Source: Paraspadella gotoi
Lineage: Eukaryota > Animalia > Chaetognatha
Assembly (NCBI GenBank): GCA_051294375.1
Contig: JBJCIZ010001289.1
Coordinates: 1-7,510 of the forward strand
Length of the DNA stretch: 7,510 bases
Reading direction: 5' to 3'
Below the pieces are notes generated by a model. The model searched no databases and had not been told where the DNA came from. It was given only the letters and a program-made list of their open reading frames with translations. Shown piece after piece: positions 915 to 7,510 of this stretch (position 1 is the stretch's first letter; every line of letters starts with the position of its first letter). The position numbers and the translations under genes are program-made.

Positions 915-987
915 GCGGCCAGTGGTGCCGGAGGCAAGTCATTCGCCTTCCAACCGAAAGGTCCGGGGTTCTAGTCCGGTTGTCGCC
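915..987 (+). pseudogene. tRNA-Gly(TCC)-derived sequence (SINE head) with Pol III A/B-like boxes
   Basis: A-box-like TGGTGCCGGAGG 923-934 and B-box-like GGTTCTAGTCC 967-977. Anticodon arm TTCGC-CTTCCAA-CCGAA 942-958. Acceptor-like GCGGC(915-919)/GTCGC(982-986). Stems are imperfect, so it is unlikely to be a functional tRNA. Confidence 0.7.
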
Positions 988-989
988 TA

Positions 990-1063
990 GCAGTTAAGAG
1001 GGACGTGGCGCTTAACCCGCCTGTAACACTGGGTTACAGCCTGATCCGAAGCTTAGGGACTGC
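990..1063 (+). ncRNA. Twister ribozyme, type P5 (slightly degenerate)
   Basis: P5 GCAGTT(990-995)/GACTGC(1058-1063); GA 1002-1003; UAA 1013-1015; GC 1019-1020; P3 CTGTAAC/GTTACAG; P4 CCTGA/TTAGG; L4 T-CCG-AA-GC 1045-1052. Deviations: the T1 partner is CGT rather than CGG, P2 is GAGG/CCC, and P1 is weak. Confidence 0.7.
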
Positions 1064-1067
1064 TTAT

Positions 1068-1193
1068 TAACTTTTAGTTCTCTCAAAAAAATTCCTTTTT
1101 TCCTTCTATTACTAAATCGATTTTCAATGAAACTTTTTGAATTAGTTCATTGGGTTGTTGCACTGAAGCTTTTAAATATTTATTAATATATAA
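1068..1193 (-). repeat. Dispersed AT-rich repeat, inverted copy of 5994-6113
   Basis: TTTTTGAATTAGTTCATTGG(G)TTGTTGCACTGAAGCTTTTAAATATTTATTAATATATAA is the reverse complement of the 5994-6052 stretch, and similarity continues to 6113. Confidence 0.85.
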
Positions 1194-1204
1194 CAAATAA
1201 CAAA

Positions 1205-1367
1205 ATAATTTACTTTGTCGGTCCGTCGGCCCGCCCCCTCAATATTGTTGGGCACTCACTTATATCATGTCAGAACATCGAATTATGATAAATTATGCAA
1301 AAAAAAAACGATATCCGTCCGTCCGTCTGGAATCATTTGAGTGGAAATGAGTTTAAATGGAAAAAAA
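1205..1367 (-). mobile_element. Partial HINE/DINE-1-like element, inverted relative to 3293-3795
   Basis: 1205-1327 is the reverse complement of about 3650-3786 (shared TGTCAGAACATCGAATTATGATAAATTATGCAAAAAA and GTCC repeats). 1340-1367 is the reverse complement of the core motif TTTTTTCCATTTAAACTCATTTCCACT. Confidence 0.6.
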
Positions 1368-1963: not shown

Positions 1964-2446
1964 TAATAAAAAAAAATAATAAAACAATTTTAACTTTATA
2001 TAGTAATAAAATAATTTTTAAATGCTTCCGTGCGCTAATTAATAAGATAAATTTTAAAAATTATTTTCATTTTCATTATCTCTAACAGTCACTTAACCAT
2101 TATTTATTTGAGAGAACTTCTAGTTTTCAACCTGTTCCGGCCTACTGCTTATATTGAACGGTTCTGTCATTAATACATAACAATAATCACTGTATCTTCA
2201 GACTTATTGTTTTGAAAACATCCACGACGCCTTGTAGTTGCTTAAAATTTTAATTGTTTTCATTGTATGACGCAGAGACAGATCACGCTTAATTTCATGT
2301 GCAAAAAAAAAAATTATCGGTTATTGAATTTACTTTGTCTGACCATTTGTACTAACAAGCCAACCCTTCCTAACAGTTATGCTGGACAAATACATGCAAA
2401 TATGATACAGTAAAATACAGTTGTAAAAAGTTGAAATTTGGACTAG

Positions 2447-2700
2447 TGTGCGGTTAATTCACACTGCCTCACGTCCACCATCCTTCAGCCAAATCCATTG
2501 GCTCAGAGGGGGAACACACCATCCCAGGCGTAGTGTTCCATCCACAGTCCTAACGACTTCCCTCTGCGTTGGCAAAGCGGAGACCGTCCTAGGGTAACCG
2601 CGCCAGTGACTGGAGGCGTCACTGAGGGTCGGAAGCCCCCAAAGCCAACAGTGAATGCCCCATCCCAATGGGCATCACAGGCAACCCGGCTGTTGCCATA
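2447..2700 (+). repeat. 5' LTR (254 bp)
   Basis: Aligns along its full length with 2896-3137. Begins TGTGCG, ends GTTGCCATA. Confidence 0.85.
2568..2649 (+). ncRNA. Twister ribozyme, type P5, in 5' LTR; predicted cleavage U2595/A2596
   Basis: P5 GTTGGC(2568-2573)/GCCAAC(2644-2649); P2 GCGG(2577-2580)/CCGC(2598-2601); GA 2582-2583 preceded by one extra A; T1 CCG(2584-2586)/CGG(2630-2632); short P1 hairpin TC-CTAG-GG; UAA 2595-2597; GC 2602-2603; P3 CAGTGAC/GTCACTG; P4 GGG/CCC; L4 T-CGG-AA-GC. Confidence 0.8.
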
Positions 2701-2703
2701 AGT

Positions 2704-2712
2704 TGGTGAGCC
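2704..2712 (+). promoter_or_regulatory. Candidate primer-binding site (PBS)
   Basis: TGGTGAGCC starts 3 nt after the LTR end, and TGG complements tRNA CCA. It is compatible, with one G-U pair, with a tRNA 3' end GGCUCGCCA as in vertebrate tRNA-Arg(ACG). The tRNA assignment is tentative. Confidence 0.55.
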
Positions 2713-2895
2713 CTACTATCAACAACGCAACCTTCTCAAGGTTACGCTACGACAACGCATATTGCCCCTGGGTACGCTACGACAAACGCCTACCCCCACA
2801 ACTCAGCGCCTCTCTCTCTCTTGCCCACTATGTTAACAGTCTTGTCAGACACCTCTCAGGCTTGAGGAACCTGAGTGATGTCTTGGCCGGGATCC

Positions 2896-3137
2896 TGTGC
2901 GTATATTTCACACTGCTCACGTCCACCATCCTTCAGGCCAAATTCCATTGGCTCAGAGGGGAACACACCATCCCAGGCGTAGTGTTCCATCCGACTTCCC
3001 CTCTGCTTGGCAAAGCGAAGACCGTCCTAGGGTAACCGGCCAGTGACTGGAGCGTCACTTGAGGTCGGGAACCCCAAAGCCAACAGGCAGATGCCCATCC
3101 CAACATGGCAATCACAGGCAACCCGGCTGTTGCCATA
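2896..3137 (+). repeat. 3' LTR (242 bp)
   Basis: Copy of 2447-2700 with an 11-bp deletion (ACAGTCCTAAC) and many single-base indels. Confidence 0.85.
3007..3083 (+). ncRNA. Twister ribozyme, type P5, in 3' LTR (degenerate as read); predicted site U3033/A3034
   Basis: Homologous to 2568-2649 and keeps GA-CCG-TCCTAGGG-TAA, P3 AGTGAC/GTCACT and P5 TTGGC/GCCAA. P2 is disrupted and L4 reads TCGGGAAC, lacking AAGC. Confidence 0.6.
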
Positions 3138-3292
3138 CTAGATACTTTCTTTCTCTGAATTCTTAAACCATAAGCCATAAACGAGTAAGACGATGGGTAC
3201 AATTGAAAGTGATATGTCTCTAGATGATAAAAAATTTTTCTTTAGTTTTTATTCGAAAAGAAAGATTTACAAACAATAGTAAGCATAAATAA

Positions 3293-3795
3293 TAAAGATT
3301 CAAGTAAATGTGACTTATTTTTTTTCCATTTAAACTCATTTCCACTGGCACAATTCCATCAAAACTTTACATCTAGCTTCTTCACACACTTTCCTACCCA
3401 CACACAAAATTTCATCTCAATCTATCCATCCAATTATGATAAATTAGAGTAATTATTGGTTAAAATAAGTAAAAAGATTTTAGTAAATGCTATTTATTTT
3501 TTTTTCCATTTAAACTCATTTTTGTTCGCACTATTCCATCGAAACTTTATATTCGGCTTCATCACACACTCCTACCCAAACACAAAATTTTATTTCAATC
3601 CGACCATCCAATAACGAGTAATTGGAGTTTTTTGCTAAGGTGGGATGGATGGACGGACGGACGGACAAACGGAAGGACAGACATCGTTTTTTTGCATAAT
3701 TTATCATAATTCGATGTTCTGACAAGATAAAATGATTTACCGACAAGATTCAGGGTGCGGACCGACGGACCGACAAAGTGAATTATAGAGTCGCG
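3293..3795 (+). mobile_element. HINE/DINE-1-like (Helentron-associated) non-autonomous element
   Basis: Two tandem core repeats of about 179 bp (AAAGATT..AGTAAATG at 3294 and 3473; shared TTCCATTTAAACTCATTT, CCTACCCA.ACACAAAATTT). These are followed by a GGAT/GGAC microsatellite at 3643-3682 and the end ..GACAAAGTGAATTATAGAGTCGCG. The family call rests on architecture only, and the terminal hairpin is incomplete. Confidence 0.55.
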
Positions 3796-4238
3796 ATCCA
3801 CTGAAAGCAGAAAATATCAATCCAATGTCAGGAATGTTAAAATACAAATAAAAAAAATTTTGAACGACATCAGCCAAAGTTTTTTTTTAAAGAAAACAGA
3901 GCAAACAAATAATTACGGGAAGGGTTGCAAAAGGTTTCTATGTTAAATTTTTCCCCTTTTTTTCTGAAAAAAGAAAGGAAAGACAACAATTTAATATATC
4001 GCGAAGAAAAATCAATTGTCAAAATGAGATTGATATTGATTTTGTCATAAAAGTCGATAAAAGTAGATTGTCGAGAATGAAGATTTTATTATAGGAAAGT
4101 TTAAGTTAAACAACAAGTATACAATAAATAAAATAAAAGTTAACAATAAATGCTTTTTTTTCTGGAAAGAAAATAAATAGACTGTGGCAGCAAGACTTAA
4201 AGCTGCCTCACTGCTGTCCGTCCTCAGCCTCGTCTCAA

Positions 4239-4292
4239 TGGCTGAGCAGGCTAAATCATCTTATTCCATCCGTGCGTCCCGGGTTCAATCCC
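4239..4292 (+). promoter_or_regulatory. tRNA-type Pol III internal promoter (A and B boxes) inside the solo LTR
   Basis: A box TGGCTGAGCAGG 4239-4250 and B box GGTTCAATCCC 4282-4292 at tRNA-like spacing (43 nt start to start). TTCCA lies at the anticodon-equivalent position. Confidence 0.65.
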
Positions 4293-4306
4293 TGGGTATC
4301 CCGGTT

Positions 4307-4386
4307 CTGGCTTAAATGTGACGGTGTCGGTATAAACATGCCATTGACAGGAGGCGGTCACTGAGGGTCCGCAGCCCCTCCGCCAG
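4307..4386 (+). ncRNA. Twister ribozyme, type P5, in solo LTR; predicted cleavage U4333/A4334
   Basis: P5 CTGGC(4307-4311)/GCCAG(4382-4386); P2 ATGT(4316-4319)/ACAT(4336-4339); GA 4320-4321; T1 CGG(4322-4324)/CCG(4369-4371); P1 TG-TCGG-TA; UAA 4333-4335; GC 4340-4341; P3 CATTGAC/GTCACTG with one mismatch; P4 AGGG/CCCT; L4 T-CCG-CA-GC (CA instead of AA). Confidence 0.85.
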
Positions 4387-4684
4387 TTGGTGAGATACCC
4401 CGCGCCCCGGGTATCACAGGCTATCCTCCCGTTGCCATAAGACAACAATTTTATGTGTTCGCGAGAATGAAAGGAATAACGATTGTGAATAATTAATAAT
4501 GTACATAATCAAGATTGATTTTTATTTAATGTTTAGATTATATGAATAGACTAAATATATTTATATTTTTAATTTTATTTACTTTTTTTATTTATTTAAT
4601 TTATTTATTCCTTCTTTTTATATATTTTTCTTATCATTTTTATTTATTATTATAGGAAAGACACAGTTAAACTTGTTTATAAAG

Positions 4685-4935
4685 TTAGTTGGGAGGGCCG
4701 CCGTCCCGATTTATCAAAAGGTTGGCGTTTTCCCTTTGAAGCGCTATGGTATGGATAGCCTTTGAAAGAAGTATTTGCATTCCAAAGCGTTTATTTTCCC
4801 CCAACGCCTTGCATGTTGGTGGGCGAAGGCTTTAAGAAAGGGCAGGGCTTCCTTGTCCCAGCCACCGAATGTCTCAACAATTAGTGGTTGGAAAAAGATT
4901 CCCTGTGTTTGACAGAGAGCAACATGGGCGTTCTG
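4685..4935 (-). pseudogene. 3' end of a CRE-clade-like non-LTR retrotransposon ORF (C-terminus of the restriction-like endonuclease), 5'-truncated
   Basis: Minus strand reads NAHVALCQTQGIFFQPLIVETFGGWDKEALPFLKAFAHQHARRWGKINALECKYFFQRLSI then ALQRENANLLINRDGGPPN*. The frame is broken by a 5-bp duplication TATGG-TATGG at 4745-4754. An A-rich tail follows (T-rich on + at about 4560-4650). F.P..VET.GGW and FQRLS.ALQR.NA are typical of CRE-like elements. Confidence 0.8.
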
Positions 4936-5256
4936 GAGTTAGGGAATTTTTGAGCTGAGGCGATCTTATAACAGTACTAAATATAATAGGAATTATGATT
5001 GGAGAAGAGAAAGTAATAGGAAAAAGCTGAAATTGGAAGATGGATGTTGAAGAATGTAAATTGTAAAATGGTCTCAAGCCAAGTTTTTTTCTGGTAAACA
5101 TACATCGCGTGCTCAGTTTCAGACCGGCAAGAAACAGTTAAAAATAATTAAAAATGAATTAGATATGAAAAAGCAAAGATATGCGATTTAACGAAAAAAA
5201 AAGGAAGAATCTAATTTAGTAAATGGTATTGTAATGAGATATGAAATATGAAATCT

Positions 5257-5311: not shown

Positions 5312-5743
5312 TGAGGAAACGCTTCGCTTAACTGCTCAAATGAGGTCGATTTAGTTTATTAAAAGCCGAACGCAAACGAACATAAAAAAAAGGCAGAATA
5401 TCGTATTCGATTAAAAATCCAAATGCTAACGAAGGAAATAAGGCGTGAAAACTCTCGTCACGTTATCTGTGATTGCGAAGTGTGATTGGTGATTGGATGA
5501 AATCCAAAGGAGACATTTTGTAGAAACAAGTTTGAGCAAACAATGTCGGATCTGCCTACGATAATTAATTAATTAATTAATTAATCGATTAATTAATTAA
5601 TTTTAATATGTAATAATTAATTTTAAATTATATTCAACTTATCATCATCGATGTCCTTAAATTGGTTAGGACAGTTATTAAATATGTTTTGTTTACATTT
5701 TATCAAAACAAACAAATATCCTCTATTTTATTTTATGTCTCCT

Positions 5744-5818: not shown

Positions 5819-5910
5819 TTTCAGATTTTTTTAACTTGCATCATTTTTTCACATTAATTAATTAATTAATTCATTAATTAATTAAAACATTTATTAGTAA
5901 TCATTAATAT

Positions 5911-5974
5911 TAAAGATTCAAGTAAATGTGACTTATGTTTTTTCCATCTAAACTCATTTCCCCTGGCACAATTC
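5911..5974 (+). repeat. Partial copy of the HINE-like core repeat
   Basis: TAAAGATTCAAGTAAATGTGACTTAT...AAACTCATTTCC.CTGGCACAATTC matches 3293-3356. Confidence 0.85.
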
Positions 5975-5993
5975 GTCAATACTTTATATATTA

Positions 5994-6113
5994 TTATATA
6001 TTAATAAATATTTAAAAGCTTCAGTGCAACAACCAATGAACTAATTCAAAAAGTTATATTGAAAATCGATTTAGTAGTAAAAGGAAAAAAAATTTAAAGA
6101 GAACTAGAAGTTA
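5994..6113 (+). repeat. Dispersed AT-rich repeat, inverted copy of 1068-1193
   Basis: Reverse-complement match to 1068-1193. Confidence 0.85.
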
Positions 6114-7176: not shown

Positions 7177-7510
7177 ACCTGCGACCGCGAGGAGGATGAG
7201 CACGGCGACCACGCCATGCACTGTCACGACGACCAGGGAGTTAGGGAGGCCGCCACAATCGAATTCGGGACAGAATCTATTCTGAGGCTCAATTCGCGAG
7301 CCTTGACCCGAAAAAAGGAGCACCGGGCCTCGTTCCAGATCCCAATCTCGCCCCGCGGACGTCTACATCCCTAACTGGATTGATGGCCGAAAAATGGCCT
7401 TTGACGTTTCTGTCGTCTCTCCCGTTCAAGAGCCATTGTTTCTCAGGCCGCCACCACCCGCCGCAGCTGCAATTGAATGCGCAAAACCTCCAAAATGCGC
7501 AACCACTTTG
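7177..7510 (+). pseudogene. CRE-clade-like non-LTR retrotransposon fragment: zinc knuckle and restriction-like endonuclease, frameshifted, runs off the window
   Basis: Joined across frameshifts: TCDREEDEHGDHAMHCHDDQG / GRHNRIRDRIYSEAQFASLDPKK / SRPADVYIPNWIDGRKMAFDVSVVSPVQ / AAAAIE / RKTSKMRNHF. Partial CCHC knuckle, RHN (7251-7259), RPAD (7349-7360) and DV.V.SP motifs of the RLE domain. Confidence 0.85.

What the first reader, a model, noticed from the sequence alone, without database searches (positions are those of the whole stretch)
2447..3137. Twister-based LTR retrozyme: miniature LTR element with a self-cleaving twister ribozyme in each LTR
Seen: two LTRs of about 250 bp (TGTG...GCCATA), a perfect 4-bp TSD CTAG, a PBS-positioned TGGTGAGCC, a 195-bp non-coding interior and a type-P5 twister fold in each LTR. 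Known: plant LTR retrozymes have this layout but with hammerhead ribozymes, yield circular RNAs and are thought to use Ty3/gypsy machinery. The twister-retroelement links I know of involve non-LTR elements. Inference: cleavage at U2595/A2596 and U3033/A3034 would excise a 438-nt monomer (2596-3033) holding one permuted LTR plus the PBS, with 5'-OH and 2',3'-cyclic phosphate ends suited to RtcB-type circularisation. I do not know of a described twister LTR retrozyme but cannot search the literature here.
Basis: partly seen in the sequence, partly recalled or inferred. Interest (0 to 1): 0.92.

Follow-up and report, generated by a model that had tools for sequence, protein, structure and literature searches.

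The report
Twister ribozyme in miniature LTR retrotransposons
A 691-base gene-less LTR retrotransposon and a related solo repeat 1 kb away carry, inside their terminal repeats, tRNA-type promoter motifs followed by a predicted self-cutting twister RNA, which would likely cut the transcript into a unit of about 440 bases that closes into a circle, a life cycle I found described only for plant elements that use a different ribozyme.

Summary
The element is real: LTRs 2447-2700 and 2896-3137, a 195-bp interior, a PBS and a CTAG target duplication. Both families hold a type-P5 twister fold. Between them, 7 of 7 two-sided changes in 29 predicted pairs stay paired, including a pseudoknot pair (0 of 200,000 random trials). 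Rfam does not recognise the motif, the 3' LTR copy is broken as assembled, and family A has two helix-end A-C mismatches. New points: each LTR has tRNA-type A and B boxes upstream of the ribozyme, which links it to Helenus TRIMs; and the P1 helix is a self-complementary 8-mer in both families, which suggests cutting as a dimer and a circle that does not re-cut itself. Two published wasp Helenus LTRs carry an unremarked hammerhead at the same place. Cleavage, circles and Pol III transcription are untested; the host is probably an invertebrate. I found no twister LTR retrozyme in ten literature searches. New variant of a known kind; interest 0.74.

The parts
2443..2446 (+). 5' target-site duplication CTAG
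2447..2700 (+). 5' LTR, family A (TGTG...GCCATA)
2499..2510 (+). tRNA-type box A motif (TGGCTCAG...GG)
   Evidence: this pattern occurs 3 times in the window on both strands, once per LTR
2535..2543 (+). box B-like motif GTTCCATCC (C in place of the usual purine), 36 nt after box A
2568..2649 (+). type-P5 twister fold; conserved G2582/A2583; predicted cut U2595/A2596; one extra base at 2579-2580 in this copy
   Evidence: domain order compared with Table 1 of PMC8501958
2587..2594 (+). P1 as a self-complementary 8-mer; no hairpin predicted alone, duplex of two copies -11.0 kcal/mol
2651..2677 (+). hairpin 3' of the ribozyme, kept in the second family with one compensatory G-C to A-T change
2704..2717 (+). 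primer-binding-site-like TGGTGAGCCCTACT; the same 14 bases follow the family B LTR in a public contig; tRNA not identified
2701..2895 (+). 195-bp non-coding interior
2885..2895 (+). weak purine tract before the 3' LTR (GGCCGGGATCC); not a clear PPT
2896..3137 (+). 3' LTR with boxes A (2949) and B (2984)
3007..3084 (+). damaged twister copy; 5' half and palindrome intact, P2, P4 and T1 broken; U3033/A3034
3138..3141 (+). 3' target-site duplication CTAG
4179..4182 (+). 5' target-site duplication AGAC of the solo LTR
4183..4439 (+). solo LTR of related family B (about 78% identical to the 5' LTR in aligned bases), boxes A 4239-4250 and B 4283-4291
4307..4386 (+). type-P5 twister fold of family B; G4320/A4321; predicted cut U4333/A4334; self-complementary P1 4325-4332
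4440..4443 (+). 3' target-site duplication AGAC; contigs join 4179 to 4441, skipping 261 = 257 + 4 bases (empty site)

Best explanation
This is a non-coding miniature LTR retrotransposon, present as two related multi-copy families, whose LTR holds tRNA-type A and B boxes followed by a twister-ribozyme fold; it is likely transcribed from those boxes, predicted to cut itself once in each LTR, and the unit released would likely be circularised and copied by a gypsy-type helper. Steps: (1) shown: LTR-PBS-interior-LTR layout, 4-bp duplications, solo LTR, conserved twister pairing. (2) inferred, about 0.65: RNA polymerase III starts a few bases before box A in the 5' LTR and reads through the 3' LTR. 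(3) inferred, about 0.8: well-preserved copies cleave at U/A, giving a 438-nt unit here (about 450 nt if the 3' LTR equals the 5' LTR) with one permuted LTR, the PBS, and no terminal repeat. (4) inferred, about 0.5: because P1 is a self-complementary 8-mer that cannot fold alone, the two LTR ribozymes cut efficiently only as a strand-swapped pair; the circle then holds a single, poorly active ribozyme and survives. (5) inferred, about 0.6: the ends are ligated and a tRNA-primed helper reverse transcriptase goes round the circle more than once to rebuild two LTRs, as proposed for plant retrozymes. This particular insertion is probably damaged or mis-assembled in its 3' LTR.
For: Layout and two independent 4-bp duplications; empty-site joint 4179-4441 in 2 contigs of X1 and 1 of X3. 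Descriptor hits at 2 places, 0 in 400 + 400 shuffles. Domain order UAA / 4-nt P2 / GC / P3 / P4 / 9-nt L4 / P2 / GA+3 nt equals that of published Schistosoma twisters. Families A and B: 27 and 28 of 29 pairs canonical; 7 of 7 two-sided changes canonical (3 in P2, 1 in pseudoknot T2, 1 in P5, 2 in P1); 0 of 200,000 random trials reach this, 1 and 3 of 200,000 without P1. 15 of 16 core positions are identical in both. The two pair-weakening bases of the solo LTR copy (4327, 4344) are read as the pairing base in over 99% of contig depth in X1 and X3. In the family A ribozyme stretch only 2 substitutions reach 8%, both in the P3 loop. Box A pattern 3 of 3 hits in the window lie in LTRs; box B 3 of 4. 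Strand-swapped dimer is 15.4 and 9.7 kcal/mol below two monomer twister folds. Precedent: plant retrozyme model (PMC4918200 Discussion); dimer cleavage of hammerheads with palindromic stems (PMC6765202 passages); P1-less twisters cleave inefficiently (PMC8501958).
Against: No Rfam twister model reaches threshold. The 3' LTR ribozyme is broken in this sequence. Family A keeps A-C mismatches at the first P2 pair and outer P4 pair even in the common version; family B has C where the consensus has A in L4. In two-dimensional energy the twister fold is far above the predicted minimum (-16.5 against -35.0 and -28.8 kcal/mol, pseudoknots not counted), and folding z-scores are weak (-1.40, -0.32). The covariation rests on two sequences, with pairs chosen by me from the consensus. 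The palindrome argument has modest statistics: given the outer two pairs, 14% of 8-mers are fully self-complementary. Family A box B is imperfect and its A-B spacing is short (36 nt); ARAGORN finds no tRNA. The PPT is weak and the PBS matches none of the tRNA primers listed for Helenus. The predicted circle is only moderately structured (59% paired; -128.9 against -116.6 +/- 5.6 for 30 shuffles).
Confidence: 0.6

Rival explanations
1. An ordinary linear-template TRIM in which the ribozyme is active but only trims or ends the RNA: cutting is incomplete, and molecules that keep a terminal repeat are the ones reverse transcribed. The ribozyme would replace the T-run terminator that follows the tRNA-like part in most Helenus LTRs.
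For: Neither family has a run of 4 T on the plus strand, whereas most published animal Helenus LTRs read by eye end in a pyrimidine- or T-rich tail soon after the tRNA-like part. The element keeps normal LTR, PBS and TSD features.
Against: Lack of a T4 run is not significant (807 of 2,000 shuffles also lack it). The 5' LTR ribozyme lies downstream of the promoter boxes, so it is transcribed too and cutting there removes the repeat needed for strand transfer (logic as in PMC4918200).
Confidence: 0.2
2. The twister is a passenger: a SINE-like or Penelope-related piece (promoter plus ribozyme) was captured into a TRIM LTR, and the ribozyme no longer works, at least in family A.
For: Rfam miss; two A-C mismatches in family A; broken 3' LTR copy; Kojima proposes that Helenus arises by SINE insertion into an LTR; Pol III promoter plus hammerhead is known in Schistosoma SINE-like repeats.
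Against: Five to seven compensatory changes arose between two families that share termini and PBS, so selection on the fold acted while it was in the LTR element.
Confidence: 0.13
3. Not a true LTR element but a partial tandem repeat of a non-LTR retrozyme or Penelope pseudo-LTR type that mimics LTRs.
For: Earlier unchecked notes of this scan report P5 twisters with palindromic P1 in Naiad Penelope-like tails; the PPT is weak and the LTR ends in TA, not CA.
Against: Two insertions with exact 4-bp duplications at the same boundaries, a solo LTR with an empty site, TG...TA termini with a 6-of-7 inverted repeat in the solo LTR, and a TGG-starting PBS shared by both families.
Confidence: 0.05

Closest known systems
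Plant LTR retrozymes (Cervera, Urbina and de la Pena 2016, PMC4918200; passages and Discussion read)
   Same: Non-coding, ribozyme in each LTR, PBS, 4-bp TSD, solo LTRs, predicted unit-length RNA without a terminal repeat.
   Different: Twister type P5 instead of type III hammerhead; smaller (691 bp; unit about 440 nt against 600-1000); tRNA-type promoter boxes; PBS is not the tRNA-Met type; weak PPT; host probably an animal; circles not shown here.
Helenus (TRIMp3; Kojima 2024, PMC10886601; main text parts 1-4 of 6 and supplement parts 1 and 5-10 of 11 read)
   Same: TRIM under 1 kb with tRNA-derived A and B boxes in the LTR, PBS, 4-bp TSD as in animal Helenus.
   Different: About 150 bases with a twister fold follow the tRNA-like part; 'twister' and 'self-cleav' occur 0 times in the main text; this family's PBS string has 0 hits in the supplement (line breaks could hide one). 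Two Synergus wasp families there carry, by my reading, a type III hammerhead at the same place.
Type-P5 twister ribozymes (class of Roth et al. 2014, not read; permutations as described in PMC10085705 and PMC6765202, passages)
   Same: Core nucleotides, both pseudoknots, helices P2-P5 and permutation.
   Different: P1 is a self-complementary 8-mer, not a normal hairpin; below all Rfam thresholds; activity untested.
Twister T-variants of Perere-3 in Schistosoma mansoni (PMC8501958; sections 17 and 18 part 1, passages)
   Same: Twister in a retrotransposon.
   Different: That is one ribozyme at the 5' end of an autonomous non-LTR element, making the 5' end for target-primed reverse transcription.
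Animal non-LTR retrozymes and Penelope hammerheads (PMC7761336, bioRxiv 10.64898/2026.07.22.740005, PMC6765202; passages)
   Same: Small ribozyme-bounded units in animals; dimer cleavage through a palindromic stem.
   Different: Type I hammerheads in tandem repeats with no LTR, PBS or PPT; the 2026 preprint has 0 occurrences of 'twister'.

Membership tests
TRIM (non-autonomous miniature LTR retrotransposon) | Two LTRs, under 1 kb, no protein coding | tested here: met
   691 bp; 254 + 195 + 242; the one 126-aa ORF has no Pfam match
TRIM (non-autonomous miniature LTR retrotransposon) | Short fixed-length target-site duplication | tested here: met
   4 bp at 2 of 2 insertions in the window; empty site for the solo LTR
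TRIM (non-autonomous miniature LTR retrotransposon) | PBS complementary to a tRNA 3' end | tested here: inconclusive
   TGG-starting 14-mer in the right place in both families; no host tRNA set held; none of the primers in Kojima Fig. S2 fits
TRIM (non-autonomous miniature LTR retrotransposon) | Polypurine tract before the 3' LTR | tested here: inconclusive
   Only GGCCGGGATCC; some published wasp Helenus interiors end in similarly weak tracts
Helenus (TRIMp3) | tRNA-like sequence with boxes A (TRGCY..YGG) and B (GGTTC) in the LTR | tested here: met
   TRGCY box A in 3 of 3 LTRs; GGTTC box B exact in family B, GTTCCATCC in family A; no full tRNA
Helenus (TRIMp3) | Transcription by RNA polymerase III | not testable with these tools
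   Also unvalidated for Helenus itself
Twister ribozyme, type P5 | Conserved core (UAA, GC, U..AGC loop, GA) with pseudoknots T1 and T2 and helices P2-P5 | tested here: met
   5' LTR and solo LTR: against the table; not met in the 3' LTR copy
Twister ribozyme, type P5 | Rfam twister model at gathering score | tested here: not met
   Best 15.2 bits (twister-P1, gathering 67.2); none for the solo LTR
Twister ribozyme, type P5 | P1 helix next to the cut site | tested here: inconclusive
   Only 2 bp possible within one strand; 8 bp between two strands
Twister ribozyme, type P5 | Self-cleavage at U/A | not testable with these tools
   Needs an in vitro assay
LTR retrozyme (plant type) | Type III hammerhead in each LTR | tested here: not met
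   Twister fold instead; no Rfam hammerhead match. So not a member by definition, though it likely works like one
LTR retrozyme (plant type) | Unit-length circular RNA accumulates | not testable with these tools
   Only contigs are held for the listed runs
LTR retrozyme (plant type) | Termini, PBS and PPT shared with an autonomous gypsy element | not testable with these tools
   No host genome held

The most novel reading that the evidence does not exclude
Animals harbour their own LTR retrozymes: Pol III-promoted miniature LTR elements whose LTR ribozyme is interchangeable (a twister in these two families, a type III hammerhead in two published wasp Helenus families). The twister version works as an obligate strand-swapped dimer through a palindromic P1, so it fires only when both LTRs are transcribed and leaves a stable circular RNA as the template for reverse transcription.
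Probability: 0.35. Interest if true: 0.88.

Novelty: new variant of a known kind. Interest (0 to 1): 0.74.

Why it matters
LTR retrozymes have been described from plants with hammerheads, and twister ribozymes in retroelements from non-LTR elements. A twister at the same place in an LTR element would show that the circle-forming life cycle does not depend on the ribozyme class or, if the host is an animal, on the kingdom, and it would give twister ribozymes a second biological role. The palindromic P1 offers a testable answer to how a circle carrying a fast ribozyme avoids cutting itself. It also suggests that part of the Helenus group, published without mention of ribozymes, are retrozymes, and that Rfam-based screens miss them.

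Tried and rejected
No whole genome is held for this window, so copies could not be collected and aligned. Rfam searches gave no twister at threshold; ARAGORN found 0 genes. A pattern for the shared LTR end found 0 matches in metagenome and viral contigs. A pattern for the ribozyme P3-P4 region gave 73, 34 and 1 loci in metagenome, prokaryote-genome and viral contigs; 0 of these 108 extend beyond the pattern or pass a relaxed twister test, so they were dropped as chance. No RNA holder was listed with certainty; runs X9 and X10 are only guessed to be RNA and are contigs, so they say nothing on expression, ends or circles. Contig depth was not used as copy number. No empty-site joint for the full element appeared among the joints displayed (15 shown, 200 more not shown). 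Absence of T4 runs is not significant. Minimum-energy folding does not recover the twister. Host identification from flanking protein fragments failed: 3 unnamed homologues, no Pfam match, weak Atlas hits labelled Eukaryota. Earlier scan notes hold no look-alike of either LTR and none with all the words of this architecture. In one search the P5 pairs of the solo LTR were mis-indexed; one search gives the corrected table. Supplement parts 2-4 (fungal families) and 11 of the Helenus paper were not read, only searched for six motifs; supplements of the Schistosoma paper and of the bioRxiv preprint were not seen and could list twisters in LTR elements (that paper notes LTR-type RT domains within 10 kb downstream of 1.6% of its variants).

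Full report
1. The observation. The window holds a 691-bp element with a 254-bp 5' LTR (2447-2700), a 195-bp interior and a 242-bp 3' LTR (2896-3137), flanked by CTAG on both sides. The LTRs agree at 226 of 234 aligned bases but have 16 gap events against 8 substitutions. So many small gaps suggest an error-prone long-read assembly; that is inference. TGGTGAGCC starts 3 bases after the 5' LTR. The predicted cut sites U2595/A2596 and U3033/A3034 bound 438 nt. One ORF of 126 aa crosses the element and has no Pfam match.

2. At 4183-4439 lies a 257-bp solo LTR, 78% identical to the 5' LTR in aligned bases, with the same GTTGCCATA end and its own 4-bp duplication AGAC. Public contigs join 4179 to 4441, skipping 261 = 257 + 4 bases: the empty site (2 contigs in run X1, 1 in X3). 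In run X9, contigs of this family continue into the same 14-base PBS as family A. Both families are multi-copy: 2,344, 771, 148 and 1 contigs of runs X3, X5, X9 and X10 lie on the 141-base ribozyme stretch of family A. This rules out a plain local duplication.

3. Is it a twister? Rfam says no at threshold: 0 matches at E<=1 in the window, a 15.2-bit partial twister-P1 match at 2601-2644 against a gathering score of 67.2, nothing for the solo LTR. The anatomy says yes. A descriptor written from the class consensus (recalled, then checked against Table 1 of PMC8501958) hits 2 places in 7.5 kb on both strands, U2595 and U4333, and 0 times in 400 shuffled windows and 400 LTR-composition shuffles. 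Both read, in P5 permutation: P5, linker, P2, GA plus 3 pseudoknot bases, P1, UAA, P2, GC, 7-bp P3, P4, 9-base L4, P4, P5. 15 of 16 core positions are the same in both families. Of 29 predicted pairs, 27 are canonical in A and 28 in B; 7 pairs changed on both sides and all 7 are canonical in B: three in P2, one in pseudoknot T2, one in P5, two in P1. Placing the same number of substitutions at random never did as well in 200,000 trials; without P1, 1 and 3 of 200,000. Caveat: two sequences, pairs chosen by me. The two weak spots of the solo copy (4327, 4344) are read as the pairing base in over 99% of contig depth in X1 and X3. In family A the extra base at 2579-2580 is absent in 72, 61, 14 and 1 contigs (37%, 42%, 51%, 100% of depth), and many other contigs are clipped there with loose ends that read the shorter form; the only substitutions above 8% fall in the P3 loop.

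4. Against. The common family A form still has A-C at the first P2 pair and at the outer P4 pair, and family B has C at an L4 position that is A in the published table. The 3' LTR of this insertion has lost a P2 base, a P4 base and the T1 guanine; public contigs hardly fit that version (depth 20 to 105 in bin 2993-3069 against over 700,000 in bin 2608-2684 for X1 and X3), so it is private decay or an assembly error. Energy models without pseudoknots prefer other folds by 12-19 kcal/mol. No cleavage or RNA evidence could be obtained.

5. Promoter. Each of the three LTRs has a tRNA-type box A (the only 3 hits of the pattern in the window) and a box B 35-44 bases later, 42-52 bases upstream of the cut site. 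Box B is exact in family B and imperfect in family A. This is the defining feature of Helenus, TRIMs with tRNA-derived LTR sequence and, in animals, 4-bp duplications and gypsy-type primers (PMC10886601). The paper's main text has no 'twister' or 'self-cleav' and names hammerheads only in a reference. I read the animal consensus sequences of its supplement by eye (parts 5-9): in nearly all, the LTR ends shortly after the tRNA-like part, and I saw no twister. Two Synergus wasp families (Helenus-2_SyJa, Helenus-2_SyUm) carry, by my reading, a canonical type III hammerhead after the boxes: GUC site, 7-bp helix I, CUGAUGA and GAAA core, complementary loops (2 of 5 hits of the core motif, the other 3 are in fungal sequences without the rest of the fold). 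The same order (boxes, ribozyme, LTR end, PBS) with two ribozyme classes argues that the arrangement is functional. It was not run through any tool.

6. The palindromic P1. In both families P1 is 8 bases long and self-complementary along its whole length, with different sequences. Alone it is not predicted to fold; two copies pair at -11.0 (A) and -10.9 kcal/mol (common B form; -1.5 for the window's variant copy). The two central bases are neighbours and cannot pair within a hairpin, yet they change together from U-A to C-G. A strand-swapped dimer is 15.4 (A) and 9.7 (B) kcal/mol below two monomer twister folds. Chance is not excluded: 14% of 8-mers with the outer two pairs are fully self-complementary. 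Precedents: hammerheads of Penelope elements with palindromic short stems likely cleave as dimers (PMC6765202), and twisters without P1 cleave inefficiently (PMC8501958). Earlier unchecked notes of this scan propose the same for twisters in Naiad elements; they are leads, not support.

7. Most likely mechanism. Transcription from the boxes in the 5' LTR runs through the 3' LTR (inferred). The two ribozyme halves pair across LTRs and cut both sites (inferred). [quoted passage not shown] Its two ends re-form one twister around the junction, ready for ligation; the circle has only the weak one-strand P1 and would resist re-cutting (inferred). A tRNA-primed gypsy-type reverse transcriptase copying more than one turn would restore two LTRs, as proposed for plant retrozymes (PMC4918200), and its integrase would make the 4-bp duplication. 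Confidence in the whole chain 0.6; in the LTR element 0.95; in a twister fold kept by selection 0.9.

8. Host. Not established. No genome is held. AT-rich DNA with microsatellites, a SINE-like repeat, fragments resembling non-LTR endonucleases (label recalled) and 4-bp duplications fit an invertebrate animal (inference, about 0.75); Atlas hits are eukaryotic but weak.

9. Novelty. Ten searches of the open-access library and passages of twelve papers found no twister in an LTR element. A 2026 preprint still defines LTR retrozymes by the type III hammerhead and places them mainly in plants; a 2022 paper lists twisters only for Perere elements; a 2020 review adds RTE elements; PMC10085705, PMC5680766, PMC12542633, PMC10226581 and PMC13725137 (passages) add nothing on LTRs. 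Subscription papers and some supplements are outside this library. Roth 2014, Liu 2014 and Lunse 2017 were not read. By definition this is not a plant-type retrozyme (no hammerhead), fits Helenus on its one testable feature, and likely works like a retrozyme: a new variant of a known kind. Interest 0.74.

Noticed in passing
PMC10886601 supplement DataS1, Helenus-2_SyJa-LTR and Helenus-2_SyUm-LTR: Both wasp LTR consensus sequences contain, by eye, a canonical type III hammerhead with complementary loops 3' of the tRNA-like boxes; the paper's main text does not mention it. Candidate insect LTR retrozyme already in Repbase.
   Followed up: partly
window 4183-4439: Solo LTR of a second twister-bearing family with its own 4-bp duplication and an empty site in public contigs.
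   Followed up: yes
window 2740-2786: Short direct repeat (about 16 bases, 31 apart) in the interior; contigs of X9 and X10 skip 2739-2769, so other copies have one unit.
   Followed up: partly
window 2488-2503 and 4223-4246: In both families box A lies in the 3' arm of a 6-7 bp hairpin.
   Followed up: no
window 915-1065: GC-rich stretch with a box B-like motif at 968 that looks like a tRNA-derived SINE; no meaningful Rfam match.
   Followed up: partly
window 1205-1330 and 3640-3790; 3277-3630 and 5895-5974: Copies of a high-copy interspersed repeat in opposite orientations with a (GGAC)n tract, recalling Helentron-associated elements (label recalled).
   Followed up: no
window 4744-4938 (-) and 7307-7510 (+): Short frames resembling the restriction-like endonuclease end of non-LTR retrotransposons (label recalled); 3 unnamed homologues for the first, no Pfam match.
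   Followed up: partly
window 1096-1207 with 5980-6090; 1674-1727 with 5514-5567: Long inverted matches 3.8-4.9 kb apart, probably dispersed copies of one repeat family.
   Followed up: no
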